NCBI GenBank assembly: GCA_018648325.1
Contig: JABGRK010000009.1
Span: 141,969-205,968, forward strand
Reading direction: 5' to 3'
Length of the DNA: 64,000 nucleotides
Source: Chloroflexota bacterium
Lineage (GTDB): Bacteria > Chloroflexota > Dehalococcoidia > JABGRK01
The position numbers and the translations under genes were made by a program. The stretch's first letter is position 1. Each line of letters opens with the position of its first letter. Shown here piece by piece: positions 1-31,155 of the stretch. The notes below the pieces were generated by a model. That model searched no databases. It had not been told where the DNA came from and saw only the letters and a list, made by a program, of their open reading frames with translations.

Positions 1-732
1 TCAGCAATAGAGATGGAACTGACTTTTTCCGATTTGGGCCTTATCGAAAAACGGTTGAAGCGTATAAAAGAAGGGCTTAAAGGATCCAAACCGGCAGAGC
101 GCGATATGGCGCTAAAAGAAACTGCCATACTTGAGGATATAAAAGCAAAATTAGAAGAGAGCATCCCTGTCCGTCAGCAGAACTTGAGCGAAGAGATTAT
201 AAAGGCGACAAGCCATTACCAGTTTATGACATCCAAGCCACTGCTGGTACTGGTCAACATCGGAGAAGCCCAGATAGACAGTGCTAAGGAAATAGAAGAA
301 GATCTGCGCGAAAATAACGATCAGTCCGGAACGGAAATTGTAACCCTGTGCGCTAAACTGGAGATGGAGCTGTCCGAGATGAAGGACGATGAGGCACAGG
401 AGATGCGTGAGGCTATGGGACTTGCCGAGTCGGCAGTGGGCAGCGTAATAAATGCCTCCTATAAGCTGCTGGGGTACATCTCGTTTTTCACCTACGGAAC
501 AGACGAAGTAAGAGCCTGGACCATAAGCGAGGGAACAAACGCACAAAGGGCTGCCGGTAAAATCCACACAGATTTGGAGAAGGGATTTATCAGGTCAGAG
601 GTTATAAAGTGCGATAAGCTACTGGAGCATAAAAGCGTTGCCGAGGCACGCAAGCATGCAGCAGTGCAGTTAGAAGGTAAAAACTACATAGTCCGTGATG
701 GGGACTGCGTAACCGTGCTGTTTAACGTATAG
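1..732 (+). CDS. ychF: ribosome-binding ATPase YchF/Ola1, C-terminal ~243 aa (5' partial, runs off window start)
   Basis: ORF in frame from nt 1; conserved YchF C-terminal/TGS-like sequence (…GKIHTDLEKGFIRSEVIKCDKLLE…). Confidence 0.8.
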   Translation, partial: SAIEMELTFSDLGLIEKRLKRIKEGLKGSKPAERDMALKETAILEDIKAKLEESIPVRQQNLSEEIIKATSHYQFMTSKPLLVLVNIGEAQIDSAKEIEEDLRENNDQSGTEIVTLCAKLEMELSEMKDDEAQEMREAMGLAESAVGSVINASYKLLGYISFFTYGTDEVRAWTISEGTNAQRAAGKIHTDLEKGFIRSEVIKCDKLLEHKSVAEARKHAAVQLEGKNYIVRDGDCVTVLFNV

Positions 733-734
733 GT

Positions 735-1610
735 TTAACCAATTTCCTCTATGCGATACTCTATCTTGCCCATGGGAGCTTTCACCTGGACTACTTTCCC
801 CTTGGTGCGCCCCACAATTGCCTTGCCTATGGGAGACTCCACAGAAAGCTTGCTTTTTGCCAGATTTGCTTCACTGGGACCTACCAGCGTATAGCACAAT
901 TGCTCACTATGCGTTATATCAAATAAAGTAACTACTGCGCCAAGCTTGATCTTATTGTCACTCTTGCCTTCATCCGCAACAACACCAAGTTTGATAATAG
1001 CTTCTAGCTCCCTTATGCGAGCCTCAACCTGTCCCTGATGATCCTTGGCTGCATCCAGCGGAGCGTTTTCTTTAAAGTCTTTGTCGGCTGCGGCAAGATT
1101 TATGGACTTTGCAATGGCCGGCCGTTCAGCAATAAGCTTTTCCAGCTCGACCTTATGCTCTTCGAGCCCCTGACGAGTAAGGGTGATAGTCTTTTCTTTC
1201 TTACTGCTGGTTTTTAAGGGGCGCTTCTTATTGCTCCGTTTCACTCGCAGATGAACACCAAGGTTGGCTTCGGTTACCTTGATCTTTTTGAGGTAAGCAA
1301 AAAAAGCTTTTACCGGCTGTAGCTTTTGCAATGGATCATTCTGATCGCTGACATGTTCTCCGTAGTTATCAAGCTCCCGTATTTTGATACTGAGAAGCTC
1401 TCTTTTTGCGCCACACCAGCGCACAAACCTGTTTAGATCCTGCTGTCTGGCTTGCTTCTCATCAACCTTAAGTGTTGCTAAGTACTGGGCAATTGCTTCG
1501 CCAATGGTTATGATCTCATCATTCAATGTATCACCCCTATCCTTTAAATTGTAAGCTGCAACGATAATGATGTCAATCAAATCACCTTGCCGAACTAACC
1601 ACTTGCGCAA
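735..1610 (-). CDS. GreA/GreB-family transcription elongation factor with ~170-aa N-terminal extension
   Basis: C-terminal ~110 aa match GreA FKBP-like domain (…KLSVESPIGKAIVGRTKGKVVQVKAPMGKIEYRIEEIG); N-terminal part is lysine-rich and unrecognised. Confidence 0.6.
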   Translation of the reverse strand: MRKWLVRQGDLIDIIIVAAYNLKDRGDTLNDEIITIGEAIAQYLATLKVDEKQARQQDLNRFVRWCGAKRELLSIKIRELDNYGEHVSDQNDPLQKLQPVKAFFAYLKKIKVTEANLGVHLRVKRSNKKRPLKTSSKKEKTITLTRQGLEEHKVELEKLIAERPAIAKSINLAAADKDFKENAPLDAAKDHQGQVEARIRELEAIIKLGVVADEGKSDNKIKLGAVVTLFDITHSEQLCYTLVGPSEANLAKSKLSVESPIGKAIVGRTKGKVVQVKAPMGKIEYRIEEIG

Positions 1611-1939
1611 ATATGCCTACAAGTCAGTACTTTTAACAGGTGCCACAACCACTTGACAAACTATGGAGTCAAGCATAATATGAGCCACAAGACCACGTGG
1701 GACTTAAATAACGCTGTATAGGGGGTGCAAGGTATGAGGCTCCATGCAGTAAAGGGAGTTTGGCAAACTGACAAGTGAGGCCCTGCTTAAATCAGGTAAT
1801 GGCAGGGCGCTTGAAAGACAAAAGACCGGGCCGATTTTAAAAGGCCACTCTCGCTGTAAAAAGCAGAGACCTGATGCGGTGCATTACATCGCAATGCGCT
1901 TGGTCTTGAGTACGCAAATAAAAAACAATTAAAATATGC

Positions 1940-1992
1940 AAAATAAATGGAGGGTTGCTCAAGAAATGGTAGAGCGCCCTCCATTTTTAAAT
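1940..1992 (-). terminator. intrinsic terminator-like hairpin downstream of the minus-strand operon ending at 2010
   Basis: 10-bp inverted repeat AAATGGAGGG…CCCTCCATTT followed by T-run on minus strand; inner GCTC…GAGC stem. Confidence 0.45.
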
Positions 1993-2009
1993 TCTTATGC
2001 AGCCCTTAA

Positions 2010-2993
2010 CTAACTATCTTTATTGTTTTTTGCTTCAATAGGCAAAGTAAAACTAAAAATACTGCCCTCACCCTCAACACTCTCAACCCATATGCGCCCG
2101 CCATGAGCCTCAACTATTTGCTTTACTATGTAAAGCCCCAGCCCCGTACCCTGCGCCTTGCGCGTAAGCGATCCATCAACTTGATGAAAACGATCAAATA
2201 TACGGCCGATAGCCGATTGAGGAATACCAATGCCATTATCCTCCACATGAACTACTACCTCTGTATCACTTTTATCGGTCTTGACCCTGATAATTCCTTC
2301 ATCATGACTAAACTTAATTGCATTGCTAAGAAGATTAACCATAACCTGTTTTATACGTATCTTGTCGGCGGGCACCTGCAATTGTGACGTCATCTGCTCG
2401 TTATTAATAGTTATTCTTTTCTGCAACGCAAGATTGCTTAGTTCATGCACAGCATCGGAAACTAGCTCGTCAATGAGTTCAGTGCTCTTATCAATTTGAA
2501 ATCCGCCCGCCTCAAGACGCTGAATATCGATTAAATCGTTGATAAGCATAACAAGGTGCTCGCTCTGCTTGTCAATGATGCCCAAAAACTCCATCTGCCT
2601 TTCAGCCATTGCCTCAAGCAGCGCCGACTGGGACTTCGGCGGCGTACGGTTTATCTCATCAGCAAGCAATATGTTAGTGAAAATAGGCCCTTTCATAAGC
2701 TCAAACTTGTTTTCTTTCTGCTTCCAAATCCGTGTACCGATGATATCGGCGGGAAGAATGTCAGGAGTAAACTGAATTCTAGTGTGGTGACAGCCAATGG
2801 TTTTAGCAAGAGCCTTAACCAGCAGTGTTTTGCCAACGCCAGGGTAGTCCTCCAGCAGTACATGTCCATTAGCGATACCAGCAGCCAGCAGTTTTTTCAG
2901 AAGCTGCATGTTGCCGACAAAAACACTGCTTACTTCATCCATTATGTTCTGGCATAAAGTAGCAGCCCCATCTATATGATCATTTTTCTTCAT
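2010..2993 (-). CDS. chimeric protein: truncated MoxR-like AAA+ ATPase N-terminus (Walker A/B only) fused to HisKA-helix + HATPase_c histidine kinase catalytic domain
   Basis: N-term …GHVLLEDYPGVGKTLLVKALAKTIGCHHTRIQFTPDILPADIIGT…ILLADEINRTPPKSQSALLEAM typical of MoxR; C-term …LINDLIDIQRLEAGG… then N/G1/G2 boxes (…LLSNAIKFS…VEDNGIGIP…GTGLGLYIVK…). Confidence 0.7.
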   Translation of the reverse strand: MKKNDHIDGAATLCQNIMDEVSSVFVGNMQLLKKLLAAGIANGHVLLEDYPGVGKTLLVKALAKTIGCHHTRIQFTPDILPADIIGTRIWKQKENKFELMKGPIFTNILLADEINRTPPKSQSALLEAMAERQMEFLGIIDKQSEHLVMLINDLIDIQRLEAGGFQIDKSTELIDELVSDAVHELSNLALQKRITINNEQMTSQLQVPADKIRIKQVMVNLLSNAIKFSHDEGIIRVKTDKSDTEVVVHVEDNGIGIPQSAIGRIFDRFHQVDGSLTRKAQGTGLGLYIVKQIVEAHGGRIWVESVEGEGSIFSFTLPIEAKNNKDS

Positions 2994-3025
2994 TATTTAA
3001 CATTACCCCCTTAACAAGCACTCAG

Positions 3026-4339
3026 CTAGCCCATTTGAATATGGCGCTCAGAAAGTGCATTCATTATATTTTTGAGTATCTGATCGCGATTTTGACGGTT
3101 GCGATCTCTTATAAGATTACGCGCTCTGGTGAAAGAAAACATTGGTATGTTGTCATCACGATACTCGGACATAGGATGAAGCAACTCGCTGATCTCTTCT
3201 ACCGACAGTCCGTTGTCGTGCATAAGTGTGACCAGATATACCAACAATTGATCCTTGTGAGAACGCTCTATAAAATCCGCCTGCACGTTCAGAGCGTAGT
3301 TGAAATCAGAGTCGGTCTGTTTTTCTACCTGTTGCAAGTGTTTTTTCCAGGATGTGTATTTCAAATGAATAGAATATGTATCGCTGATTCTGCCACGTAT
3401 TCCATCATACATGCGCCACACAACAAAGCAAAACGTAGCCCACTCAATAAGCGCTGTGGACCAGGAAGCCATGTTAAACAAGAACGGCCTTAGGAATACA
3501 ATGTAAGCACCTATAACCGCACCAATAACAAACAGCCTCACCTTGGAATTGGATAACCAGCGGCAGATCTCCGATATAAAGGCATCTTCGAAATTTCTGC
3601 CATAGTGAGCAAGTATGCCCAGTACAGAAGTCAGCATCCCTGCAAGTATTACCCAGGCCACACCGGTTATTTCAATCCAAATGTTGGAAAAGGAGTAAAG
3701 CACAACAAATATCCCAAACCCCACCAGCGCTGTGACCACCGCCAACGTAAGCGCCCTCCACCTGTATATCCCGGCACCAACTTCGTGGATCAAGGGAACG
3801 GACTTATAAATGGTAACTGCTGCTATGCCCAATACTATATAAACACGGTTTGCAACAATGCTACGCAGAAACTCCAGCATGTCAGCTATACTTGCTGCCC
3901 CGCCGCTGCCTAAGTAATAGCTCACCATGACTTCCATCTGCGCAGATCTGCCAAGCATTATATAAACAAAAACACCGACCGCAGTACCGGTAAACAGGCG
4001 ATAGCAGTAAGCATCCAAAGGTTTGGGAACAAAGATATGCGAAAGCCGGGCAACAATAACTACCTGCAACGAAGCTACCAGCGGCAGGGTCATATATCTC
4101 AATTCAGGAAAGTAATTCTGTCGCCAGAAGATTGCATAGACCACAACCGACAGGATGGTATAAACCATAATCCTGATAAGGTCAGCGCCAGTACTTTCGC
4201 GCTGCGACCAGCCCGTGGGCTTGCCTCCTGCCTGAGCCTCTAATGAATCAACAGCATCATTGCCACGCAAAGACTGCATATACGTATAAAGAGCAAGGGG
4301 AATGCCAATCCCAAACAGCAGCCATATTATAAGTGCCAC
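3026..4339 (-). CDS. polytopic membrane protein (~8-10 TM) with ~130-aa hydrophilic C-terminal domain; GTG start directly after stop of upstream gene
   Basis: 437-aa ORF, multiple hydrophobic segments; translationally coupled to giant surface-protein gene. Confidence 0.55.
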   Translation of the reverse strand: MALIIWLLFGIGIPLALYTYMQSLRGNDAVDSLEAQAGGKPTGWSQRESTGADLIRIMVYTILSVVVYAIFWRQNYFPELRYMTLPLVASLQVVIVARLSHIFVPKPLDAYCYRLFTGTAVGVFVYIMLGRSAQMEVMVSYYLGSGGAASIADMLEFLRSIVANRVYIVLGIAAVTIYKSVPLIHEVGAGIYRWRALTLAVVTALVGFGIFVVLYSFSNIWIEITGVAWVILAGMLTSVLGILAHYGRNFEDAFISEICRWLSNSKVRLFVIGAVIGAYIVFLRPFLFNMASWSTALIEWATFCFVVWRMYDGIRGRISDTYSIHLKYTSWKKHLQQVEKQTDSDFNYALNVQADFIERSHKDQLLVYLVTLMHDNGLSVEEISELLHPMSEYRDDNIPMFSFTRARNLIRDRNRQNRDQILKNIMNALSERHIQMG

Positions 4340-7228
4340 TTAAGCTCCCTCTATATGTTCTAAAACAGGCCTGTAGACGTTTAGCATATCTATAAAGCTC
4401 TCTCTTGTAAAGTCATGAGAGCTATAGAGGGCCTCTTCGCAGAATGTAATAAACCTATCCAGCTTCCTCTGGTCGATATCTTTGAGTGATGCGACAATTA
4501 CACTCTCGATTTCTCTAGGTGTAGACTTCCTGCTTATATAAATGTCCCTATGCCTTGAGGCATTGACTGCCGAATCAAAGAGGCTGACAGCCTCCTCGCG
4601 ATAGTCAACTATTTTTATTGCCCTGCTATCATTTGACGGAGCATATTTCCCATCCCCATTAAAGAAGCACGTAACGTTATAGATGCCCTGCACTTTAAAG
4701 CGGCACATATATACGTCGGTACCATGTCCGTCCGTAATAATTTCACTTATTCTGTTGTCATTTGCCAACACCTCAATAGAGCGTGTGGCGACAGGCTCAC
4801 TCGCGATATCAGTGAGTTTACATACGATTTTGAGTTTTTCGTTTGTCCCCCATATTCCCTCAAGCGGTGCTGCGACATAAGGAAACTGCACTTCCATACG
4901 AGTGACTATAAGATTTGGGTTGTACTGCCTGGCAGGTTTCTCTGGCATTTCCGGTATTTCGGAAACCAATACCTCTTGAAGCGCAACAGTGTTCTGGGTC
5001 GCTGCCATAACATATGCGGCCCTGCGCCTTGAGCGAATAAAGAGATAGGCAACATATGCGGCCACAAGCGCCCCAAGTGCGACTAGAATCCACAGCACCC
5101 ATCCCATATAATCCTGGGCAGTCGCAGGGGCGCTAAGGTCTGCGCCATAATTCCGCTGGCCAATCTGCATATTAAAAACGGTTTGAGCAGGTGTATACAA
5201 CTCCGAACCATCAAATACAGCAGTAATGGTATAGTCACCGGAATTTGAGAAAAGATGCTCACTCATCTTAAAATTACCACCCAAATTGGTTAGAACCGGT
5301 TCATATTCAATTTCACTGCCATCAAAATCAATGATGACCCTAACCGGTACCTGTCTAACAGGGGATTGATCACCAGTGAGTATGTTACCCCGTATCTTTA
5401 TATCATCAAACTCGGTGGCGGTTTCAGGCATCTGGTCATCGAATGCAATCACGGATTGGGCCATAACGATAAAAGTGATGTTTTCATTGGATCCCCAAAA
5501 ATAGCCGGTTTGCTGAAAGTCTGACTGAAATTCCCAATATCCTTCTTCATCAAATTCATGGTTAATAAGAATTATGCCATCTGCATCGGTGTTCTGAAGT
5601 GGATAACCATGATGAGCTATACCCATTGATGTACTATAATCAATGCTCTGTCCGGCAACAGGATTGCCCTCTACATCACGCAACTCCACCTCAATAGACA
5701 CTTCATCCCCTGTCATGTGCGGTGCCGGCGAAGTTACAACTACACTTATGCGGGTAGGCATCATAACAACCATATCGGTACTGACACTGGTCGGCAGATA
5801 ATCAGACGTGCCAAGAAAAAAGGCCGTTGCGGTGTAATTTCCAACTCCCGAAAAGCCGTCCACCCAAGTGTAACTATAGCGGCCTTTCACATCTGTGATA
5901 GTTTGTACACGCATATCAGGATCGCTCACTGGAAAGACCATCTGTAGTTCAGTATGTGGGATGGGATCGCCATTAATGTCTTCGAGTACACCACCAAGAG
6001 TTACGGCGCGCTCAAACATGAAACTTCCAGAATAATCGGTTGTCAAAGAGCCAAGCGGGATGGATGCTACTGCATCTTCAAACCACAAATCTACGCTAAC
6101 ATTAGATTCAAAAGAATAGCCATATAAAGGATTATATGACCTGACAGTACCCTGAAGGCCAATTGAATAGGGCAGAGAATATGCCCCATCGGAGTCGGTT
6201 AACATCAGCACCTGCGGGAAAAAGGCACGCTGGTCCAGCAACAAATCAACTGTAAGCCCGTCAAACGGATCACCGCCATAAGTGGTAATTGTTCCTCTAA
6301 GATCAAATGTTGTAGATAATATAAACTGACCCAGCCCATTGGTTGTCAACTGGGCAAATACTACCATCCCCTCACCATCGTCTATCATAAGGTCAATGGT
6401 CTGCCCTGTTATTGGCTGACCCAGGGCATCGGTAAGAACGCCGGCAATATTAATAACATCATCTAGCACAAAGCCACCGCTTGCATCTGTAACTACCTGT
6501 GCAGAAATTGACTTGCTGCACAGATGAATATACACCGATTGGTTTATTAGAGGATCACCAAACTCATCCAACAAAAAGCCCTCATATGTAACAGGGTTGA
6601 GTGCATCAATTACACTTTCAGAATCAAGAGTAAGAGCAGAATCGATACGCGTCTCAATAACAGCCACAGCGTTAGAGCCTGCCAAATAAAGAGCGCTCCG
6701 TTGTTCAAATTCTGTTTTGACCCCGAATATATTAAAATCTTCAAACGTATATGTAAAGCTGTAGCTTCCATTCAAATTTGTGGTAAATGTGCCAATATAG
6801 TCGCCATTGATACTCAGATATATCGTCTGGTCGGCTATCGGGTCGCCCGACACCGTTTCCGTAAGAAAGCCTTCAATAACAACTTCCTCATTTATTAGGG
6901 CATACTGCGGCATATTTATAGTGAGTGTGGTTGGAGTAAGCACCATTACTTGATAAGAGTTATCGGCAGCGGGCGGATATAAGTTGGCACCGGCAAACGA
7001 GGCGGTGATCTCATAATCGCCGGAAGCATTAAACGTATGCACCAGAAAAAAGCGCCCTTTATCGTCAGTTACAACCTGTACATCGGGACTGCCGTCGTCA
7101 ACATGAATATTAACGGTGTAACCCACCAGGTCATTACCGAACTCGTCATGCATCGCCCCCCCCAATATCACAGGGTCCGTACGCAAGCGGCTGATTGCTA
7201 ACAAAAAGAACAATGGTGGGAGGACCAT
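4340..7228 (-). CDS. C-terminal portion (962 aa) of giant repeat surface protein: Ig-like repeats, one TM helix, ~250-aa C-terminal tail
   Basis: repeat units homologous to those of 7146..10508 (…EFGNDL…DGSPD…); frame differs from upstream ORF by a G8 tract. Confidence 0.65.
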   Translation of the reverse strand: MVLPPLFFLLAISRLRTDPVILGGAMHDEFGNDLVGYTVNIHVDDGSPDVQVVTDDKGRFFLVHTFNASGDYEITASFAGANLYPPAADNSYQVMVLTPTTLTINMPQYALINEEVVIEGFLTETVSGDPIADQTIYLSINGDYIGTFTTNLNGSYSFTYTFEDFNIFGVKTEFEQRSALYLAGSNAVAVIETRIDSALTLDSESVIDALNPVTYEGFLLDEFGDPLINQSVYIHLCSKSISAQVVTDASGGFVLDDVINIAGVLTDALGQPITGQTIDLMIDDGEGMVVFAQLTTNGLGQFILSTTFDLRGTITTYGGDPFDGLTVDLLLDQRAFFPQVLMLTDSDGAYSLPYSIGLQGTVRSYNPLYGYSFESNVSVDLWFEDAVASIPLGSLTTDYSGSFMFERAVTLGGVLEDINGDPIPHTELQMVFPVSDPDMRVQTITDVKGRYSYTWVDGFSGVGNYTATAFFLGTSDYLPTSVSTDMVVMMPTRISVVVTSPAPHMTGDEVSIEVELRDVEGNPVAGQSIDYSTSMGIAHHGYPLQNTDADGIILINHEFDEEGYWEFQSDFQQTGYFWGSNENITFIVMAQSVIAFDDQMPETATEFDDIKIRGNILTGDQSPVRQVPVRVIIDFDGSEIEYEPVLTNLGGNFKMSEHLFSNSGDYTITAVFDGSELYTPAQTVFNMQIGQRNYGADLSAPATAQDYMGWVLWILVALGALVAAYVAYLFIRSRRRAAYVMAATQNTVALQEVLVSEIPEMPEKPARQYNPNLIVTRMEVQFPYVAAPLEGIWGTNEKLKIVCKLTDIASEPVATRSIEVLANDNRISEIITDGHGTDVYMCRFKVQGIYNVTCFFNGDGKYAPSNDSRAIKIVDYREEAVSLFDSAVNASRHRDIYISRKSTPREIESVIVASLKDIDQRKLDRFITFCEEALYSSHDFTRESFIDMLNVYRPVLEHIEGA

Positions 7229-10200
7229 ACACCCGTATCACATCAGATGCTGAGTTAGACTTATAATAATCATTTTCGGTAAAAACGGCGTATACAGTAC
7301 GATCGCCGGAGTCAGTAAATGTGTGATCGTAAGTATAGCTGCCATCTCCTAAAATTTCCACATTGCCGCTGATAAGCGTTACTCCATCAAACAGGGATAA
7401 GCTTTGCCCTGCCAGCGGGATGCCATCTATATCATGTAGAGTACCATTGATAGTAATCTGAGTATTTACTTTTGCCTCTTCAGGAACGTTAACAGTAAGC
7501 TGGGTCGGCATTATTATTTTGATAATGTCAGAAGAACTTGTTCCGGGATAAAGCGCCGTTCCTATAAAACTAGCTGTTACAGTATAATCGCCTACATCAG
7601 CAAACGTATGCTCCCATACAAATAGTCCGCCTGCGCCCGTCACAAACGGAACATCGGGGCTACCATCTGAGAAATGAATTACAACCGGTTGGCCCTCTAG
7701 ATCGTTGCCGAACTCCTCATACATATGAATTCTGATAGTAACAGGCTGATCATATATATCTACTCTTGGGATCAGGATAATGTCTATAAACGGCGGACCA
7801 TACACACGTACATCAGCAACCGGTTCGCTGCGAGCCTCCTTATAGAAGTTAGCATTATCAACAGCGAATTTTGCAAATACATCGTAATCGCCCGAGCGTA
7901 CAAACTTATAATCAACTTCGTAGCTTCCATCAGACTGTGTAGTTGTCTGTGTAAGAACCTCATCACCGTTCATTATGTAAACCGTTGTACCCGCAAGAGG
8001 ATCACCCCAGTCATCCAGCAAAGAGCCTTCCATTGTAAGCGTTGTAGCCTGTTTGATTTCGATTGGCAGCGCGTTCATGGTTATACTGGTGGGCATCCAC
8101 ACAGTTACATCTACGCTGCTCTCAACACCGGGCATATAAGGGTCTATACCATCAAAAGCAGCACTTATTGTACGCTGCCCAACAGACAAGTATTGGATAG
8201 GGACCTCCAAAATACCCTGATTATCTGTTAGCAGATTGCCAATATTAACTGAATTTCCATTGCGAATGGAGTAAAAATGTATTATTTCCCCACTCACAGG
8301 TTCATCAAATTCGTCTATTAAGGTAGCTTTTATGAGATTCCCTCTCTCCTCATCATTGTCAATCACTCCATTATTATTTCTATCCAGAGATACATCTACG
8401 TTTTCATCTATCTCAAGTGTGAGAGTAGGCGGACCATACACGCGTATATCCTGCTCAAACCTTGAGGAATTGAACAATCCAAAAGTCGGGTCTTCATCCG
8501 GGAGGTAACCAAATATCCCGCCACCATCGTACACCACGCTGATGGTAAACTCGCCACGCTGATCAAACGTGCGATCCAACGTAAACTTCCCAGTGGGAAG
8601 CGTTACAACCTGTCCGATCAGAAGGGGTATCGTAGTGGCTCCCGTACGATTATAATAAATTCGCACTGTGCGGCCACCCATCTGCCTGCGAAGGATATCC
8701 TCAAGGGTGCCCTCAATCGTCCACGGGGCACCCAGCTTTATCTTTTCAGGCAGATTGTCAATAGAAAGAAGTGTATCTATAGTAACCTTTGTATCAGCGA
8801 TTTCGCTCACAGGCTTATGAAATTCATTGCCACTAAAAGATGCTTCAACGCTATAGTTTCCCTGAACACCAAAAACGTAGGGTAATACAAAGTCGCCACT
8901 TGGCAAAGTGGTAGTAGAAAGAGTGCTCAGTGTTGCGCCACTGTCTATATTTACTATTTCAATATCGACCGTTACCCCTGCTATAGGATTATCGGGGTAG
9001 ATTGCATCATGCAGATTGCCTGATATAATAAAAACATCGCCCACCTTGGCATCTTCAGACATTTTCGGTACAATCTCAGATTCCGTGGTAATGATTACAT
9101 CAGGATCACTATCCGATCCCAGCAGGAACGGCTGCAGACCCACCGCTTGCGCAATAATGTGCCAGTTGCCTGCCGTCATATCAATAGGCACATCGCACTC
9201 AATGTTATAGCCATCGCTTCCAACCACTCCCAATGCTACAAAAGAGGCTGGCTTGTTCGGCATCCCGTTAACAAATTCGGGCTTATCACTATCACCTCCC
9301 TGCCAGAGCCATATCCTTACAGGCATACTAGGCACGGTGATACCCTCAACGGTCGTTACATTGCCGATCACATAAAACGGCTGGTCTTTCTCTATTATAA
9401 TTCCTTCAAGAATGGGGGTTTCGGGATCATACTCAGGATTGCTCTGGATACTCCAGATATCGGTTATCGTCTCAACGGCTATATTATTTACATCTTTAAT
9501 CGGCATACTGTTGTAAACAATCCAACCAAGTTCCTCAAAACCTACCTCGGCCAGATAAATCGTCTGAACAGCGCTTACCGTCTGCTCTTCATCAGTAGGT
9601 GCAATCCAATATCCCGATGTCAGCCTTGCCGGTATGCCCGCGCAACGGGCCAATATCACATATGCCGATGCAAAGTGGTTTGAAAGACCCTGCCTCTCCT
9701 CAAACAAAAACCAGTCGGTTGCTTCCTCCCCACTAGGAAGAGCTGCCATATTTTCCCGCGAAAACTCGTAGTTTTCCAGTAAATACGTCTCTATGGCTTT
9801 CGATTTTTCGTAGGGGGACTCATAATCCGCAGTTATCTCAAGGGACAGTGCTTTAGTACGCGATGATATATTACCAGGCAGTTGCAGATACCTGGTGTCA
9901 TCAAGAACCTCTGCCTCAATGAGCACCTCATCATCAAAGTAGTAGTGTGTGGCAGTAAACTCGTAGGCCTCGGATGTACTCTGCTGCACCCAAAAGGACC
10001 CCGCCTCCGGATACAACATTATGGGATCGGGATGCGTAAGCTGTCTGGTATGAAGCGAAGTTGGAATAAACTGAGCAGGGAACTGTAAAAGCGGTGTGAT
10101 CGTAATTGTGTCTGTTGCCATATTCGAGTAGTTGCTCACATCAGCAGCGGGAAGCGTTTCGCCACGATAACTTCGCGGCTTATCATTTATGTCTTTTGCC

Positions 10201-10508
10201 CAAAGATTGCCATTATAGTGCGTTGCAGCAAAGCTTCTTAAGAAAAAAGTACTGCCTGCACCGGAAACAGTAAAAATATCCACATCACCAGGATAGTCCC
10301 CTTTCGGCTCTATCCCATCCCAACCTGCAGGCATGATAGCTGAGGGTTCAATATCCTTATCCCATATAGTATGCAAAATTGCATCTTCGGCCAACGGCGA
10401 TATCAGATTATCCGATATCATCATAAAAAGGCCGACCAGCGATACTAACACCGCCGCACCTACAAACGGAGCCAGAAGTCTCCTTTTGGAGCCAAACATG
10501 TTTCTCAT
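7146..10508 (-). CDS. N-terminal portion (1120 aa) of giant surface protein: signal/anchor, degenerate transglutaminase-like core, ~8 Ig-like/CarboxypepD_reg-like repeats
   Basis: …GLSNHFASAYVILARCAGIPARLTSGYW… resembles Transglut_core but Cys->Ser, His->Thr, Asp->Asn; recurring ~95-aa repeats ending RVYGPP. Confidence 0.7.
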   Translation of the reverse strand: MRNMFGSKRRLLAPFVGAAVLVSLVGLFMMISDNLISPLAEDAILHTIWDKDIEPSAIMPAGWDGIEPKGDYPGDVDIFTVSGAGSTFFLRSFAATHYNGNLWAKDINDKPRSYRGETLPAADVSNYSNMATDTITITPLLQFPAQFIPTSLHTRQLTHPDPIMLYPEAGSFWVQQSTSEAYEFTATHYYFDDEVLIEAEVLDDTRYLQLPGNISSRTKALSLEITADYESPYEKSKAIETYLLENYEFSRENMAALPSGEEATDWFLFEERQGLSNHFASAYVILARCAGIPARLTSGYWIAPTDEEQTVSAVQTIYLAEVGFEELGWIVYNSMPIKDVNNIAVETITDIWSIQSNPEYDPETPILEGIIIEKDQPFYVIGNVTTVEGITVPSMPVRIWLWQGGDSDKPEFVNGMPNKPASFVALGVVGSDGYNIECDVPIDMTAGNWHIIAQAVGLQPFLLGSDSDPDVIITTESEIVPKMSEDAKVGDVFIISGNLHDAIYPDNPIAGVTVDIEIVNIDSGATLSTLSTTTLPSGDFVLPYVFGVQGNYSVEASFSGNEFHKPVSEIADTKVTIDTLLSIDNLPEKIKLGAPWTIEGTLEDILRRQMGGRTVRIYYNRTGATTIPLLIGQVVTLPTGKFTLDRTFDQRGEFTISVVYDGGGIFGYLPDEDPTFGLFNSSRFEQDIRVYGPPTLTLEIDENVDVSLDRNNNGVIDNDEERGNLIKATLIDEFDEPVSGEIIHFYSIRNGNSVNIGNLLTDNQGILEVPIQYLSVGQRTISAAFDGIDPYMPGVESSVDVTVWMPTSITMNALPIEIKQATTLTMEGSLLDDWGDPLAGTTVYIMNGDEVLTQTTTQSDGSYEVDYKFVRSGDYDVFAKFAVDNANFYKEARSEPVADVRVYGPPFIDIILIPRVDIYDQPVTIRIHMYEEFGNDLEGQPVVIHFSDGSPDVPFVTGAGGLFVWEHTFADVGDYTVTASFIGTALYPGTSSSDIIKIIMPTQLTVNVPEEAKVNTQITINGTLHDIDGIPLAGQSLSLFDGVTLISGNVEILGDGSYTYDHTFTDSGDRTVYAVFTENDYYKSNSASDVIRVYGPPTIVLFVSNQPLAYGPCDIGGGDA
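7156..7163 (-). repeat. poly-G(8) homopolymer on coding strand at the frame junction of the giant protein
   Basis: …catcgcccccccc aat… ; with 7 G the two ORFs fuse into one ~2,050-aa protein (…PCDIGGAMHDEF…). Confidence 0.8.
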
Positions 10509-10789
10509 ACAACCACCGTGCAGGATACTTTGTTGCCGATTGTATTATCAATAGGTTTCATATCTCTAATAAACCTTATATCTTTACCAGTTAATCAAAC
10601 GCCACTTTGGGCCTGATTGCTCCATACTGTCTATATTAATATATACGCTGAAAGTGTCAATAATGTTCACCCCAAAGCAAGTAACAGTTTCCTCACAGTT
10701 TGTTAAGATATTGTTAAGACCCTCTAATTACTTTTAACGATAGCTACGTTAAAATGTCAGATGGCAAATATTTTCATATGCTACAATTT

Positions 10790-10945
10790 CTACAACGGTC
10801 TATACAGCCCTAATACGTAACCACATGCCTGACAGTAGTAACCATCAAAATCACGTTGGCGAGCCGTCCACTTCCCACCTGTCGCCATTCTAAACAATTC
10901 CTTTTTTATCTTCCTGCTATCGCACTTCGGACACTGCGATTCCAT
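10790..10945 (-). CDS. small YgiT-type zinc-ribbon protein (51 aa)
   Basis: MESQCPKCDSRK…YYCQACGYVLG; CxxC…CxxCG; paralog at 11731..11910. Confidence 0.5.
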   Translation of the reverse strand: MESQCPKCDSRKIKKELFRMATGGKWTARQRDFDGYYCQACGYVLGLYRPL

Positions 10946-11097
10946 GCATCCTCCCGTCTCAATAAACAGTATTGCTATTTTATATATAATACGACGTACA
11001 TGCAAGTGTAGAACTACGGTAGTTTGTATATCCCTGCGTGCGTCATGATATACTGCTGCAATAATACAATTGTGAATAGAAGATAAGAGACTAAGAA

Positions 11098-11271
11098 ATG
11101 GAATACAGCGATACACTTATAATACTATCGGTGGGGCTGTTTATCGGGTTGTTCGGCGGCAAAATGAGCAGGCCGTGGTCTCAGATAGCCACATGGCAGA
11201 AGACACTGCGTATCACCCTGCTTGTGATCGTTATGCTCATAATAGCAACCATTGTCCTTATGGCGCTTTAG
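11098..11271 (+). CDS. small hydrophobic protein (57 aa), 2 TM
   Basis: ATG after AG-rich RBS-like stretch (aagataagagactaag); MEYSDTLIILSVGLFIGLF…. Confidence 0.3.
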   Translation: MEYSDTLIILSVGLFIGLFGGKMSRPWSQIATWQKTLRITLLVIVMLIIATIVLMAL

Positions 11272-11295
11272 GTTAGAAGAAGGAAAAGAGACTTA

Positions 11296-11727
11296 ATGAA
11301 AAAACGTGGTTTGGGAATTGTGCTGATCATCATGCTGGTGCTGGTTATACCGGGTACTATCAATTGCAGTTGCGCTGGCGATAATCCCGCAGGTGAGATT
11401 GAAGAAACCATAACGGCTTATGTGCAGGCATATGCATCAAAAGATGCAACCGCAATGCTTGACCTTCAAACTACAGCGTATACAGCATCACTATCCGGAG
11501 GCCACCAAACTTATTGGGAAAACAGGTGGGGTGATAATACAGATTCAATAACAGAGTTAGAGGTAACCATTGTTTATCAGAATGCAACGGTTGCAACAGC
11601 CAGTGCTATATGCAATATAAAAACAACGCTGCCAAATGGCAGTACATGGTACCAAGGTAGCTGGCAATGGAACTACACGCTGGTAAAAACCGATAAGGTG
11701 TGGTTGATATCTTCAGAGATTCGATAG
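11296..11727 (+). CDS. secreted/lipoprotein of unknown function (paralog A)
   Basis: signal peptide + Cys; paralogous to 12056..12502 (…ASCNI…LPNGS…YQG…W…LVKT.DKW…). Confidence 0.6.
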   Translation: MKKRGLGIVLIIMLVLVIPGTINCSCAGDNPAGEIEETITAYVQAYASKDATAMLDLQTTAYTASLSGGHQTYWENRWGDNTDSITELEVTIVYQNATVATASAICNIKTTLPNGSTWYQGSWQWNYTLVKTDKVWLISSEIR

Positions 11728-11730
11728 TGA

Positions 11731-11910
11731 TTATTTATCATAATAACTATTCTTGTACCTATCTCGCTTATACGTTCCCAAAACATAGCCGCATGCCTGA
11801 CAGATATTAGTATCAAATAAAACAGCACGTTTAAACAATCCGTACTCTGTCATAACGTAAGTTTCCTTTTCAATATCACTGCTGCCACACTTAAGACACT
11901 CCGATTCCAT
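11731..11910 (-). CDS. small YgiT-type zinc-ribbon protein (59 aa), paralog of 10790..10945
   Basis: MESECLKCGSSDIEKETYVMTEYGLFKRAVLFDTNICQACGYVLGTYKRDR…; not in ORF track (<60 aa). Confidence 0.5.
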   Translation of the reverse strand: MESECLKCGSSDIEKETYVMTEYGLFKRAVLFDTNICQACGYVLGTYKRDRYKNSYYDK

Positions 11911-11992
11911 AAGTCCTCCTTACACAAAAACCATTACTGTTATTTCTTACGTATAATAAGATGTGCACGCCAATGAATCAATACTACACTTA

Positions 11993-12020
11993 TTGATATC
12001 CATGCGCACCATGCTATACT
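11993..12020 (+). promoter_or_regulatory. sigma70-like promoter TTGATA-N16-TATACT for lipoprotein paralog B
   Basis: hexamers and spacing; homologous element (…TGCG…ATACTG(C/T)TGCAATAATACAA) upstream of paralog A at ~11041-11085. Confidence 0.4.
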
Positions 12021-12055
12021 GTTGCAATAATACAACGGCTGATACGAGAGATGAC

Positions 12056-12502
12056 ATGATGAAGAAACGATTTTTTGTACTTACTTTAATCACGGTTCTA
12101 GCGATGGTTATGGCAAGCGCTATTGGTTGTGGTAGCAGCAATACGCAGGATACGCCGGAAAGCACAGTGAGGCTATGGTTGAAGGCATATGAATCCAAAA
12201 ATGCGACAGCACTTGTTAATCTTGGAACAGAAGGATTTAAAACGTTGACATATCCCCAAGAACCCGAGGACTATTGGGAAGGCAGATGGGGTTATAATAT
12301 ATTTTCAATGTCATCTATTAGTGTGACAATTACAGACCAAGACGAAACTACGGCAGAAGCTACCGCTTCATGCAATATTGTCGTAAGACTATCAGATGGT
12401 AGTATACAATATCAAGGTGGTACGACATGGGATTTTTCTCTGGTAAAAACCGCTGACAAATGGAGAGTATCCGCGGATGTGTGGCCACAACAAACCGGGT
12501 AA
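12056..12502 (+). CDS. lipoprotein of unknown function (paralog B)
   Basis: MMKKRFFVLTLITVLAMVMASAIGCGS lipobox; paralog of 11296..11727. Confidence 0.6.
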   Translation: MMKKRFFVLTLITVLAMVMASAIGCGSSNTQDTPESTVRLWLKAYESKNATALVNLGTEGFKTLTYPQEPEDYWEGRWGYNIFSMSSISVTITDQDETTAEATASCNIVVRLSDGSIQYQGGTTWDFSLVKTADKWRVSADVWPQQTG

Positions 12503-12528
12503 GTTATAGAGATACTAGAACCAAGGAG

Positions 12529-13917
12529 ATGTTGATGCCAACTAAAAATGAGCTAAAGAAAAAAGTCTGCGAGGAAATTGAGCGCAGGGCAGATGAGATA
12601 ATCGCCGCGGCAAAGGCAATCGCGAACAACGCCGAGACTGGCTTTCGCGAGGTCGAAACCGCCAAGCTGGTAGCGCAAACGTTTACCAGAGCGGGAATCG
12701 AGTATAGGGACGGGCTAGCGATTACCGGCGTAAAAGGCATGCTAAACGGAAACGGCGCTGGTCCCACCGTGGCGGTGCTGGGTGAGCTGGATGCACTGAC
12801 CATACCCGACCATCCGCAGGCACATCCGGAAACGGGGGCAGCACACGCCTGCGGTCACAACGGACAGATAGGCATGCTGCTGGGGGTGGCGCTGGGACTC
12901 AAAGGATCAGGTGTTCTATCATCACTTAGCGGCAACATAGCCCTGATGGCCGTACCCGCCGAAGAGTACATCGAGATCGAATACCGCAACGGACTGCGTC
13001 AAGAGGGCAAACTGTCGTTTCTGGGAGGCAAGCCGGAGCTTATCAAGCTGGGTGAGTTCGACGATGTAGATATGGCCATAATGGCGCACAACGGCACAAT
13101 CAAGGAAGGCCGTGTCAGTGGCGCCCGTGGTGGCAGCAGCAACGGCACAGTGGCCAAACAGATCGAGTTTATTGGACGTAGCGCTCATGCCGGAGCAGCG
13201 CCGGAAAAAGGAATAAACGCCCTGAATGCAGCCAACATAGCGCTTGCCGCCATACATGCGCAGCGCGAAACGTTCAAGGACGCTGACACCGTGCGGGTGC
13301 ATCCCATCATCACCAAGGGCGGTCAGTCGGTAAACGCCGTGCCCGCCGATGTGCGCATGGAAACATTCGTGCGGGGCAAAACTATCGAAGCTATAACAGA
13401 TGCCAACGCCAAGGTAGACAGGGCGCTGCGTGCGGGAGCAATGGCAGTGGGTGCCAAGGTACGCATCACCACCCTGCCGGGATATATGCCGATGACGGCC
13501 AACCCTGAGTTGCGCGATCTTTTCAGGGATAACGCCGTATCGCTGCTGGGAGAGGACAAGGTAATACCGATAGACCCAACAGCCCACGCGGCAGGATCAA
13601 CTGACCTTGGCGATCTGGGCCACATAATGCCGGTGATATGCGGCTTTGCCGCCGGAGCCATCGGAACTGCCCACGGCAACGACTTTATAATGGAGGACTA
13701 CACGCTGGCGGTGATCAATCCGGCCAAGATCATGGCGATGATGATTATCGACCTGCTTGCCGACGGGGCGTCCTGCGCAAAAGACGTGCTTGCCAAAAAC
13801 AAACCTCCTATGACCAAAGCGCAGTATCTTGAATCGATGGAGGCTTTGCTCAAGGTAGAGGAGTATGGGGACGATAGCGAGGACAATCCCCCTGAACAGG
13901 CTGGCGTTATATTATAA
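12529..13917 (+). CDS. M20D-family amidohydrolase/peptidase (AbgB/HipO-like)
   Basis: …AHACGHNGQIGMLLG… metal-binding motif; RBS AAGGAG before ATG at 12529. Confidence 0.8.
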   Translation: MLMPTKNELKKKVCEEIERRADEIIAAAKAIANNAETGFREVETAKLVAQTFTRAGIEYRDGLAITGVKGMLNGNGAGPTVAVLGELDALTIPDHPQAHPETGAAHACGHNGQIGMLLGVALGLKGSGVLSSLSGNIALMAVPAEEYIEIEYRNGLRQEGKLSFLGGKPELIKLGEFDDVDMAIMAHNGTIKEGRVSGARGGSSNGTVAKQIEFIGRSAHAGAAPEKGINALNAANIALAAIHAQRETFKDADTVRVHPIITKGGQSVNAVPADVRMETFVRGKTIEAITDANAKVDRALRAGAMAVGAKVRITTLPGYMPMTANPELRDLFRDNAVSLLGEDKVIPIDPTAHAAGSTDLGDLGHIMPVICGFAAGAIGTAHGNDFIMEDYTLAVINPAKIMAMMIIDLLADGASCAKDVLAKNKPPMTKAQYLESMEALLKVEEYGDDSEDNPPEQAGVIL

Positions 13918-23222: not shown

Positions 23223-24119
23223 GTGAGAACCAGAATAACCAAAAGGCCGAAACTAAGAGAGCCCGATCTTATCGCCTGCTGGCCGGGAATCGGAAACGTC
23301 GGTGTAATTACCGCCGATGTCATACGCAAGCAAACAGGTGGAGAGCAATTGGGCTACATAGAACCATGGGATTTTTTCTATCCCAAAGCGGTGACGATCG
23401 ATCAAGGCGAGCTTACGGCACTCGATTTTCCCTTGAGCCATTTCTATTACTCTGAGACAGAAAAGCGCGATCTACTCTTTTTCATCGCCGGCGAGCAGCC
23501 TTCGGACGGATACAGCTCATATGCACAAGGAGAGCAAGCCTACAAGATGGCAAACATGGTGCTGGATGTGGCCCAGAAGTTTGGTTGCAAGCGCGTTTAC
23601 ACTTCCGGAGCGGCAGTTACCTATATGCATCACAGCGCCAGACCGCGTGTGTGGGCCGTACCCAACTCCAAACACTTGCTTGAGGAAACAGACGACTGGA
23701 ACAACGTTGTAAAGGTATCCGAACTGAAGGAAAAGGAAGAAAATATAAGAATAACCGGCATGAACGGGATAATGCTGGGTGCCGCCCGCAAACGCGGTAT
23801 TGACGGATTCTGCCTGATGGGAGAAGTACCAGTGTACCTGCAGGGTCTGCCGTTTGCTTACCCTAAAGCGTCCAAATCGGTAATAGAGGTTCTGAGTTAT
23901 ATCCTCAATATCAATATCGACTATAAACGTCTGGACAAGCTGGCCGCACGCAACCAGAAGGAAATTTTGCGGCTGTACAAGCACCTGCCCAAGGCCACCA
24001 TAGAGCTTATAGACAGGCTGGCCAAGAACGCCGAGCCAACAGATACCGGCCCCATAACCGAAAAAGACAAACAGCAGATATTGGACGAGATAGACAAATT
24101 CTTTAAACCAAAACCTTAA
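23223..24119 (+). CDS. PAC2 (proteasome assembly chaperone 2-like) family protein
   Basis: …REPDLIACWPGIGNVG… PAC2 N-terminal signature. Confidence 0.6.
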   Translation: MRTRITKRPKLREPDLIACWPGIGNVGVITADVIRKQTGGEQLGYIEPWDFFYPKAVTIDQGELTALDFPLSHFYYSETEKRDLLFFIAGEQPSDGYSSYAQGEQAYKMANMVLDVAQKFGCKRVYTSGAAVTYMHHSARPRVWAVPNSKHLLEETDDWNNVVKVSELKEKEENIRITGMNGIMLGAARKRGIDGFCLMGEVPVYLQGLPFAYPKASKSVIEVLSYILNINIDYKRLDKLAARNQKEILRLYKHLPKATIELIDRLAKNAEPTDTGPITEKDKQQILDEIDKFFKPKP

Positions 24120-24138
24120 AGGATGAAATAAAAGTAAA

Positions 24139-26249: not shown

Positions 26250-26264
26250 GTTAACTAAAAAATC

Positions 26265-27312: not shown

Positions 27313-27384
27313 CTCAATACACTTTCACATGAATATATCGAAGCTATCATTGTATAGCAGGCGTCACACAGGCGTCAACACACT

Positions 27385-27609
27385 TTATAGGCTGACTATA
27401 CCCTGCCCGGCAATCATATCTTTGAGCTTTGCAGACAGGTCAGGCGAATACGAATCCAGCAAGCGCAGTACTTCACCAAGCGTGGTTGCCTGCTGACGCT
27501 TGCACAGATTTTTCATATACTTAACCAGCCCCAGATGCTTTATGCATCCCGATGGATATTTGTTTAGAGCCGCTACTTCAGCCTTGTCTCCAAGCAGCTT
27601 AAACTCCAT
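27385..27609 (-). CDS. hypothetical protein
   Basis: 74-aa ORF only. Confidence 0.25.
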   Translation of the reverse strand: MEFKLLGDKAEVAALNKYPSGCIKHLGLVKYMKNLCKRQQATTLGEVLRLLDSYSPDLSAKLKDMIAGQGIVSL

Positions 27610-30601: not shown

Positions 30602-30633
30602 TTAGGTAGAACAGTTATCCAAAGGATATTTAT

Positions 30634-31155
30634 ATGCAAGAACCACCAGAAGTAATAAAAGAACGAATCTACAATCTAGCTCGCGGCGAATACCTTAGTA
30701 AGATGGCTTCAATTGAGCATCGTATGACTTCCCTTATTGTTGATTTACTTGGAGTGCAGAACTTCACAACCGAGTTTCATTGGTGGTTTCTAGAAGCTAG
30801 AATCCCGTTCGAGCAAAAAGTTTCTCTCCTTAAAGAATTGATTAAGGGGGAAACGTATCTGAATCAGTTTGGGGATATTAGCAAAAAAATCATTGACGCA
30901 CAAAAATTCAGAAATAAACTGGCTCATTCTTTCCATCTAATGGATGAAATCATGACTTCCCGCGGTGAAATCCTACAATCAGATCAAATATCTTTAAAAG
31001 TTCTCAGCAATAAATTGGGGCAAATACACGCTCTTAATATTCTCCTTGGAGACACCTATATGGTATCGATTTATGGTGGTTCCCCTCCTATATCCGTTGA
31101 GGAATACAAAAAGTATGAAGACTATCGGCCAGAATACCTAGAAGGCTTCATATAG
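30634..31155 (+). CDS. hypothetical protein, AT-rich island gene 2; HEPN/Abi-like R-N-x3-H motif
   Basis: 173 aa all-helical; …AQKFRNKLAHSFHLMDE…. Confidence 0.4.
   Translation: MQEPPEVIKERIYNLARGEYLSKMASIEHRMTSLIVDLLGVQNFTTEFHWWFLEARIPFEQKVSLLKELIKGETYLNQFGDISKKIIDAQKFRNKLAHSFHLMDEIMTSRGEILQSDQISLKVLSNKLGQIHALNILLGDTYMVSIYGGSPPISVEEYKKYEDYRPEYLEGFI

What the first reader, a model, noticed from the sequence alone, without database searches (positions are those of the whole stretch)
7140..7235. G8 homopolymer tract splits a ~2,050-aa surface protein into two ORFs: candidate phase-variable contingency locus (or homopolymer sequencing error)
ORFs 7146..10508 and 4340..7228 share the same repeat architecture, and their junction falls inside one repeat unit. 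On the coding strand the junction is GGGGGGGG (complement of 7156-7163). With 7 G the frames fuse, giving …AYGPCDIGGAMHDEFGNDL…. With 8 G translation stops after 1,120 aa, before the C-terminal TM helix, and the product would be released rather than anchored. Poly-G tracts of 7 or more nt in surface-protein genes are classic slipped-strand phase-variation switches. The same window has other homopolymer-associated frameshifts, so a sequencing artefact is equally possible.
Basis: seen in the sequence. Interest (0 to 1): 0.55.

Follow-up and report, generated by a model that had tools for sequence, protein, structure and literature searches.

The report
Real poly-G frameshift splitting surface-protein gene
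A run of eight G's really does break a giant cell-surface protein gene of an uncultured Chloroflexota bacterium in two; every independent assembly shows the same eight G's, so it is not a sequencing error, and it looks like a fixed inactivating mutation rather than a demonstrated on/off switch.

Summary
A G8 run (coding strand, window 7156-7163) separates ORF A (7146-10508, 1120 aa) from ORF B (4340-7153, 937 aa). Removing one G gives a 2055-aa ORF that aligns without a gap across the junction to single-ORF orthologues.

The sequencing-error reading is essentially excluded. The exact G8-encoded products occur on at least 10 contigs from at least 6 independent Illumina assemblies and three NCBI MAG protein accessions. 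The products predicted for G7, G9 and G10 are absent from about 15 billion proteins.

Phase variation is not supported at consensus level. No tract-length variation was seen. G/C runs are not enriched in the window. The partner operon is also damaged: MoxR is truncated and fused to a histidine-kinase tail, and no DUF58 gene lies beside it. Two other genes, adenosine deaminase and a solute-binding protein, carry fixed 1-nt frameshifts.

One observation keeps the switch idea alive. The only indel polymorphism in 175 kb of otherwise near-identical contigs is the window's other long G/C run (C7/C8, 31156-31162).

Best reading: a genuine, fixed G7-to-G8 slippage mutation in a decaying operon, mechanically reversible but not shown to switch. 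Ordinary; low interest.

The parts
7156..7163 (-). G8 homopolymer (C8 on the + strand). It encodes Gly-Gly-Gly(GGC) in the present frame and would encode Gly-Gly-Ala with 7 G. This is the site of the frame break.
   Evidence: G8 confirmed in the DNA of 5 distinct foreign contigs.
7146..10508 (-). ORF A, 1120 aa. It holds an N-terminal hydrophobic anchor (about aa 9-32), a Transglut_core domain (aa 220-332) with Ser in place of the catalytic Cys, and then Ig-like repeats (Big_1, Big_3_5, CarboxypepD_reg). It stops at TGA three codons after the tract.
   Evidence: The exact product is on 8 contigs.
4340..7153 (-). ORF B as called in public assemblies, 937 aa, starting MHDEFGNDL.... It holds Ig-like repeats, one TM helix (fused-protein aa about 1799-1822) and a roughly 230-aa C-terminal tail. 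It has no N-terminal signal sequence of its own.
   Evidence: The exact product is on 8 contigs.
7146..7153 (-). ATGCATGA: the ATG of ORF B overlaps the TGA of ORF A by 8 nt. The G8 run lies at -10 to -3 from that ATG, making a possible Shine-Dalgarno mimic. The Met is ancestral (Ile/Met in orthologues and in the paralogous repeat).
   Evidence: Reinitiation at this ATG is inferred, not tested.
3026..4339 (-). 437-aa protein with hydrophobic stretches and no Pfam match. It starts immediately after the stop of ORF B and is 54% identical to the gene that follows the intact orthologue in L001.
2010..2993 (-). Hybrid gene. Residues 1-136 are a MoxR AAA_3 N-terminus (81% identical to the L001 MoxR). 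The sequence then switches abruptly to a HisKA/HATPase_c histidine-kinase C-terminus. The breakpoint is near window 2585. The DUF58 gene that follows MoxR in L001 is absent here.
   Evidence: The same hybrid is present in all assemblies.

Best explanation
The G8 run is a genuine genomic feature of a near-clonal, uncultured Chloroflexota population. It is most likely the product of one replication-slippage insertion (G7 to G8) in a run that originally read ATT GGG GGG GCG ATG (Ile-Gly-Gly-Ala-Met), at the first beta-strand of one Ig-like repeat.

The extra G shifts the frame, and translation ends three codons later. The cell makes at most a 1120-aa N-terminally anchored fragment (an inactive-type transglutaminase fold plus about half of the Ig-like repeats). 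This fragment lacks the distal repeats, the second TM helix and the cytoplasmic tail.

The mutation is fixed in all sampled populations and sits in an operon that has also lost its MoxR/DUF58 partners, so I read it as recent gene inactivation (a young pseudogene). The tract remains mechanically able to slip back.

Shown: the tract, the frame break, one-gene ancestry, uniformity across assemblies, damage to the partner gene, and other fixed frameshifts. Inferred: the direction of the mutation (G7 to G8), loss of function, recency (ORF B is still open), and membrane topology.
For: (a) One-gene ancestry. The orthologue P0001 is a single 2030-aa ORF, colinear over 2-2055, and three orthologues align without a gap across the junction only if the tract is G7.

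(b) Real, not error. The exact 1120-aa product is on 8 contigs and the exact 937-aa product is on 8 contigs. G8 was read directly in JABHHX010000014.1, ERZ27237607 k141_478332, ERZ4201001 NODE_7234, ERZ508549 NODE_1858 and ERZ27246207 k141_123607. Added to these are the JGI 549-kb contig, fragment P0073 and three NCBI protein accessions.

(c) No alternative allele. The products predicted for G7, G9 and G10 are absent from about 15 billion proteins.

(d) Operon decay. MoxR is 81% identical to the orthologous MoxR up to about aa 136 and then becomes a histidine-kinase C-terminus. DUF58 is missing next to it, whereas L001 keeps TGase, 446 aa, MoxR and DUF58 in order.

(e) The lineage carries other fixed 1-nt frameshifts. 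Adenosine deaminase is split 215+146 aa in 6 contigs, and SBP_bac_5 is split 155+442 aa.

(f) No signature of an evolved switch or recoding site. G/C runs of 7 or more are not enriched (3 against 6.0 +/- 3.1). There is no downstream RNA structure (z = 0.07). The orthologues do not have Gly-Gly at this position, so they cannot carry this G run.
Against: ORF B is still a clean 937-codon open frame with recognisable domains. The lesion is therefore either very recent or ORF B is still under selection.

The only other long G/C run (C7, 31156-31162) is C8 in 2 of 6 independent contigs, against only 2 SNP sites in 175 kb. Such runs are thus unusually mutable in this lineage, and an ON subpopulation below consensus level could exist.

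All contigs are about 100% identical and may represent one clone sampled repeatedly, so 'fixed' covers little evolutionary depth.

The look-up for alternative alleles needs a full-length, otherwise identical protein on one contig. This gene often breaks assemblies (contigs end at window 6831, 6887, 8281 and 8302), which weakens that negative result.
Confidence: 0.55

Rival explanations
1. Slipped-strand phase variation. The G tract is a contingency switch, and G8 (OFF/truncated) happens to be the majority state in every sampled population. A G7 (ON) minority makes the full-length doubly anchored protein.
For: The tract is G8 inside a cell-surface repeat protein. In N. meningitidis, homopolymers of 8 or more nt were predominantly variable (PMC5084427). 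In this same near-clonal population the other long G/C run varies between C7 and C8 among samples and is the only indel in 175 kb. ORF B remains fully open.
Against: There is no length variation at this tract in at least 10 contigs from at least 6 assemblies, and no G7, G9 or G10 product in the protein collection. G/C runs are not over-represented, whereas SSRs are significantly over-represented in N. meningitidis (PMC5084427). The tract is mid-gene and not conserved in orthologues. The MoxR/DUF58 partners are already destroyed. 0 of about 10 against 2 of 7 at the C7 tract is not statistically distinguishable, so this is absence of evidence rather than disproof.
Confidence: 0.22
2. A split but expressed gene. 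ORF B might be translated by reinitiation at the overlapping ATG (ATGCATGA), with the G run acting as a Shine-Dalgarno mimic. Alternatively a fraction of ribosomes (+1 slip on G GGG GGG G) or of RNA polymerases (slippage on the run) might restore the frame. Either route would give two products from one locus.
For: The 8-nt stop/start overlap and the G run at -10 to -3 of the ATG resemble coupled cistrons. About half of the window's genes have GGAG-like motifs at -13 to -6. GGG-to-GGG re-pairing in the +1 frame is perfect (read from the sequence). ORF B is intact, and gene callers annotate it as a separate gene.
Against: ORF B would start 4 residues into an Ig-like domain and has no signal sequence, so about 680 aa of normally extracytoplasmic repeats could not be exported (topology is inferred). 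There is no stimulatory RNA structure. Orthologues are single ORFs without a slippery run. The ATG is an ancestral internal Met/Ile, not a new start. The window's other two frameshifts have no comparable features.
Confidence: 0.12
3. Homopolymer sequencing or assembly error: the true tract is G7 and the gene is intact.
For: Homopolymers are the classic site of indel errors. At the C7 run, assemblies do disagree.
Against: The call is the same G8 in independent samples and with different assemblers (MEGAHIT k141 contigs, SPAdes NODE contigs, JGI, NCBI MAGs), and not one G7 call was found. The window's other frameshifts are at 3-nt runs and are also reproduced everywhere. The window therefore does not show an error-prone-platform signature.
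Confidence: 0.04

Closest known systems
Poly-G/C contingency loci of Campylobacter jejuni, Neisseria meningitidis and Helicobacter pylori (slipped-strand phase variation)
   Same: A G/C homopolymer of 8 nt inside the ORF of a surface-associated protein, where one unit of slippage toggles between a full-length and a truncated product. A second G/C run in the same genome is length-polymorphic.
   Different: No length polymorphism and no ON allele were seen at this tract. Such runs are not enriched. The tract is mid-gene, not near the 5' end. The organism is an uncultured Chloroflexota rather than a host-adapted pathogen. In N. meningitidis, SSR excess and inter-strain polymorphism are the working criteria (PMC5084427).
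Homopolymer-slippage pseudogenes in clonal or decaying bacterial lineages (for example frameshifted genes in Mycobacterium; own knowledge, with PMC11898584 for M. tuberculosis homopolymer indels seen only as an abstract)
   Same: A single-nucleotide insertion in a run, fixed in a clonal population. It is accompanied by other fixed frameshifts and by a rearranged neighbouring gene.
   Different: Only 64 kb was examined, so the genome-wide pseudogene load is unknown.
Transglutaminase-like membrane proteins encoded with MoxR AAA+ ATPase and DUF58 (TgpA-type/MoxR-associated operons; own knowledge), and the giant multi-TGase/HEAT-repeat proteins of Chloroflexota found
   Same: A Transglut_core domain after an N-terminal membrane segment. 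Gene order TGase, membrane protein, MoxR, DUF58 in the orthologous locus L001.
   Different: The catalytic Cys is replaced (GLS here; GIH/GIY in the closest orthologues; GTC in the distant Chloroflexota giants). There is a long array of Ig-like repeats and a second TM helix. In this genome MoxR is truncated and fused, and DUF58 is absent.
Programmed +1 frameshifting (prfB type) and transcriptional slippage on homopolymers
   Same: A run that allows perfect +1 re-pairing, with a stop codon shortly downstream in the zero frame.
   Different: The stop is not adjacent to the slip site. There is no separate upstream SD at prfB-like spacing, no conservation in orthologues and no RNA structure. Known bacterial transcriptional slippage mostly uses A/T runs of 9 or more (own knowledge).

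Membership tests
SSR-mediated phase-variable (contingency) locus | A simple-sequence repeat of switch-competent length (G/C homopolymer of about 7-8 or more) in the ORF or promoter | tested here: met
   G8 at 7156-7163 inside the coding sequence.
SSR-mediated phase-variable (contingency) locus | Tract-length polymorphism between strains or samples | tested here: not met
   G8 in all contigs spanning the site, at least 10 contigs from at least 6 assemblies. This is consensus level only.
SSR-mediated phase-variable (contingency) locus | Both ON and OFF alleles exist | tested here: not met
   The products predicted for G7, G9 and G10 are absent from about 15 billion proteins. The look-up needs a full-length exact match.
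SSR-mediated phase-variable (contingency) locus | Within-population (read-level) heterogeneity of tract length | not testable with these tools
   No access to reads.
SSR-mediated phase-variable (contingency) locus | Over-representation of such repeats in the genome | tested here: not met
   3 G7 matches (2 tracts) against 6.0 +/- 3.1 expected in the 64-kb window. The whole genome was not examined.
SSR-mediated phase-variable (contingency) locus | G/C tracts are demonstrably hypermutable in this organism | tested here: inconclusive
   The C7 run at 31156-31162 is C8 in L008 and L020 and is the only indel in 174.7 kb aligned. It is a single locus and could partly reflect assembly noise.
Transglutaminase-like superfamily (Pfam PF01841) | Significant match to the Transglut_core profile | tested here: met
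   62.8 bits against a cut-off of 23, at aa 220-332 of ORF A.
Transglutaminase-like superfamily (Pfam PF01841) | Catalytic Cys in the G-x-C-x-x-F-[AS] motif (an active enzyme) | tested here: not met
   The motif is GLSNHFAS here and GIH/GIY in P0001-P0003, while distant homologues have GTC. The His/Asp of the triad were not checked.
MoxR-DUF58-transglutaminase operon | Intact MoxR AAA+ ATPase and a DUF58 gene adjacent | tested here: not met
   MoxR homology ends at about aa 136 and is followed by HisKA/HATPase_c. There is no DUF58 between it and greA. The orthologous locus L001 has both.
Programmed ribosomal frameshift site | A slippery sequence that allows re-pairing in the new frame | tested here: met
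   G GGG GGG G allows GGG-to-GGG re-pairing at +1 (read from the sequence).
Programmed ribosomal frameshift site | Conservation of the two-frame arrangement in relatives and/or a stimulatory element | tested here: not met
   Orthologues are single ORFs without Gly-Gly at this position. The fold of the downstream 136 nt has z = 0.07.
Sequencing or assembly artefact | Not reproducible in independent data sets | tested here: not met
   Reproduced in every independent assembly.

The most novel reading that the evidence does not exclude
The G8 run is a working slipped-strand (or +1 recoding) switch in a free-living, uncultured Chloroflexota bacterium. It would toggle a giant transglutaminase-fold/Ig-repeat envelope protein between a short N-anchored form and a full-length form anchored at both ends, with the short form dominant in all sampled populations. 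The C7/C8 polymorphism at 31156-31162 shows that such runs do slip in this lineage. To my knowledge SSR phase variation has not been described in this phylum; I did not search the literature for it.
Probability: 0.2. Interest if true: 0.55.

Novelty: new member of a known kind. Interest (0 to 1): 0.25.

Why it matters
For annotation, the two 'hypothetical proteins' deposited for this MAG lineage (MBT3362341.1 and MBT3362340.1, with their duplicates) are halves of one roughly 2055-aa transglutaminase-fold surface protein, interrupted by a real 1-nt insertion. They should be flagged as a frameshifted gene, not 'corrected' as an assembly error.

For biology, the locus, the fused MoxR gene and two other fixed frameshifts together suggest ongoing gene decay in a very clonal environmental Chloroflexota population. 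If read-level data showed G7/G8 mixtures, this would extend homopolymer phase variation to a phylum and lifestyle where, to my knowledge, it has not been described. Nothing found here demonstrates that.

Tried and rejected
- Exact DNA pattern scans for the tract with its flanks found nothing in genome contigs or in metagenome contigs (N{6,10} between the flanks).
- The search for related loci with 401 aa around the junction returned pattern matches but no relatives in either collection. No sister strains were available to compare tract length.
It was replaced by an exact look-up in the protein collection.
- Look-ups of the adenosine deaminase and solute-binding-protein ORFs using ORF listing start codons found nothing, because gene callers chose other starts. 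This was solved by looking up neighbouring genes.
- The search for homologous proteins returned nothing closer than 45% identity (40% for the only full-length hit), although the identical halves are in the collection. That search therefore could not reveal close alleles.
- A literature search for the sample and assembly accessions found nothing, so the habitat was not established.
- The idea that the MoxR-kinase hybrid and the SBP-PD40 ORF are assembly chimeras was rejected, because the same ORFs occur in independent assemblies.
- The idea that overlapping ORF pairs at 16751/17605, 44368/44726 and 56442/57040 are further frameshifts was rejected, because they are different gene families.
- Identity to P0001 is lower in the ORF B half than in the ORF A half (34% against 49%). 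I considered this as a sign of relaxed constraint and judged it uninformative: distal repeats are variable in any case, and ORF B has no stop codons.
Full report
**1. The observation**

On the coding (minus) strand the sequence is ...CCC TGT GAT ATT GGG GGG GGC GAT GCA TGA..., with the eight G's at window 7163-7156. ORF A (7146..10508, 1120 aa) ends at that TGA. ORF B is open from 7228, or from the ATG at 7153 that public gene calls use, down to 4340.

Removing one G gives a single 2055-aa ORF, and adding two gives 2056 aa. The tract is the longest G/C run in the window, and the only other run of 7 or more is C7 at 31156-31162. Its presence alone is not beyond chance: 3 overlapping G7 matches against 6.0 +/- 3.1 in shuffles.

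**2. The two ORFs are one gene**

ORF A has an N-terminal hydrophobic segment, a Transglut_core domain and Ig-like repeats (Big_1, Big_3_5, CarboxypepD_reg). ORF B has more of the same repeats, a second hydrophobic helix (fused aa about 1799-1822) and a tail with no Pfam family.

The best database relative, P0001, is a single 2030-aa protein that aligns with the fused sequence from residue 2 to 2055. At the junction, P0001, P0002 and P0003 align without a gap to the G7 reading: IGGAMHDEF against ISGHIYDEY, ISGHMYDEF and IKGNLSDEF. G7 is therefore the parsimonious ancestral state, and G10 would add one residue.

The break lies 2-4 residues into one CarboxypepD_reg-type repeat.

**3. It is not a sequencing error**

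- The exact 1120-aa product is encoded on 8 contigs and the exact 937-aa product on 8 contigs.
- I read G8 directly in five distinct foreign contigs: NCBI JABHHX010000014.1, ERZ27237607 k141_478332, ERZ4201001 NODE_7234, ERZ508549 NODE_1858 and ERZ27246207 k141_123607.
- A JGI 549-kb contig has the same two gene calls.
- A JGI fragment (P0073) ends ...CDIGGGDA.
- Three NCBI protein accessions, labelled Chloroflexi/Chloroflexota bacterium, exist for each half.

These come from different samples and assemblers. The proteins that G7, G9 or G10 would encode are not in the 15-billion-protein collection.

**4. The population and its polymorphisms**

27 fetched contigs align to 32.4 kb of the window, 174.7 kb in total. 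They show only two SNP sites (2101 and 26589) and one indel site. That indel is the other long G/C run: C7 in the window and four distinct contigs, and C8 in L008 and L020.

Of 11 homopolymers of 7 or more nt in the covered parts (positions, coverage), this is the only polymorphic one. G/C runs therefore do slip, or are miscalled, at a visible rate in this lineage, yet the G8 run in the gene is invariant. The comparison of 0 of about 10 against 2 of 7 is too small to argue for selection.

**5. Context points to decay rather than to a switch**

In the orthologous locus L001 the order is TGase (2030 aa), 446-aa membrane protein, MoxR (328 aa), DUF58, 282 aa.

In the window the 437-aa gene is conserved (54% identity). 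The next gene is 81% identical to MoxR only up to about residue 136 and then becomes a HisKA/HATPase_c kinase C-terminus. No DUF58 gene follows; greA comes next. This hybrid is present in all assemblies.

Two unrelated genes are also split by 1-nt frame changes. Adenosine deaminase is split with Pfam profile 1-200 in one ORF and 199-323 in the next, with the frame change within about 26658-26673. An SBP_bac_5 protein is split with the frame change within about 52825-52845. Both lie at runs of at most 3 nt, and both are reproduced in independent assemblies.

All three lesions need a +1 shift to read through, as expected for single-base insertions. Three cases are too few to make anything of this.

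**6. Mechanism**

The best-supported account is a replication-slippage insertion (G7 to G8) that became fixed in a near-clonal population. It truncates the protein after 1120 aa. The truncated product keeps its N-terminal hydrophobic segment, so it is probably still membrane-associated rather than released; this is an inference.

ORF B is still open over 937 codons, so the event is recent or ORF B is still used.

Alternatives that would keep ORF B in use:
- Reinitiation at the overlapping ATG (ATGCATGA), with the G run at -10 to -3 as an SD mimic.
- +1 ribosomal slippage on the run.
- Transcriptional slippage on the run.

Against these, ORF B has no export signal, there is no stimulatory RNA structure, and orthologues lack any such arrangement.

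True phase variation remains possible only as a sub-consensus phenomenon.

**7. Comparison with known systems**

The locus works like a poly-G contingency locus in the narrow mechanical sense. It fails the membership tests that could be run: inter-sample polymorphism, existence of an ON allele, and SSR enrichment. Those criteria are the ones used for N. meningitidis (PMC5084427).

The protein belongs to the transglutaminase-like superfamily by profile. It lacks the catalytic Cys, as do its closest orthologues.

**8. Verdict**

The artefact reading is rejected, phase variation is unproven, and gene inactivation in a decaying operon is the most likely explanation. This is an ordinary kind of feature. 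Its main practical value is correct annotation, plus a concrete read-level test.

Noticed in passing
window 31156-31162: A C7 run lies immediately after the TAG stop of ORF 30634..31155 and about 260 nt upstream of the class-III aminotransferase gene. It is C8 in two independent contigs (L008 from SAMN05224487, L020 from ERZ27237607) and C7 in four others. It is the only indel polymorphism in 174.7 kb of aligned contigs.
   Followed up: partly
window 2010-2993 (-), breakpoint near 2585: A hybrid ORF. A MoxR AAA_3 N-terminus (81% identical to the orthologous MoxR up to about aa 136, ending after the Walker B region) is fused in frame to a HisKA/HATPase_c histidine-kinase C-terminus. It is present in all assemblies, so it is a real rearrangement or deletion, not a chimera. 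The DUF58 gene expected next is missing.
   Followed up: partly
window 26265-27312 (-), frame change within about 26658-26673: The adenosine deaminase gene is split into 215-aa and 146-aa ORFs by a 1-nt frame change at a run of only 3 nt. From my recollection of the E. coli Add sequence, HAGE-VAGV-ESIW would be restored by removing one T from GTTT. The same split occurs in 6 independent contigs.
   Followed up: partly
window 51515-53318 (-), frame change within about 52825-52845: An SBP_bac_5 solute-binding protein is split into 155-aa and 442-aa ORFs. The larger piece also carries PD40/Tricorn_N matches at its C-terminus, an unusual combination. The split is also present in the JGI 549-kb contig and in ERZ4201001.
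   Followed up: partly
window 9681-9683 (-), residue 276 of ORF A: The catalytic Cys position of the transglutaminase core motif is Ser (GLSNHFAS). The closest orthologues have His or Tyr there, while distant Chloroflexota giants with 2-4 TGase domains keep GTC. This subfamily is probably a non-catalytic transglutaminase fold.
   Followed up: partly
window 1-13508, 23711-35786, 46677-53474 against loci L005-L035: Contigs from many samples and assemblers are essentially identical to the window: 2 SNP sites (2101 C/G, 26589 A/C) in 174.7 kb aligned. The population is extremely clonal, or the same clone was sampled repeatedly.
   Followed up: yes
window about 6831-6887 and about 8281-8302: Independent assemblies break at the same places inside the gene: L015/L016 end at 6831, L007 ends at 6887, and L035 and L014 start at 8281 and 8302. 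This is presumably because of the internal Ig-like repeats and not at the G tract.
   Followed up: no
L002 8510-9823 and L003 4190-5503: In two JGI contigs the 1298-aa orthologue P0002 ends where a 437-aa phage-integrase-family gene begins, with a 100-nt overlap. The surrounding genes there look archaeal or unusual (PAC2, DUF61, NFACT-R_2). This may be a homologue truncated by an integrated element.
   Followed up: no
This is probably a chance by-product of reading the VYGPPTIVLFV linker in another frame, but it would resemble a signal sequence if used.
   Followed up: no
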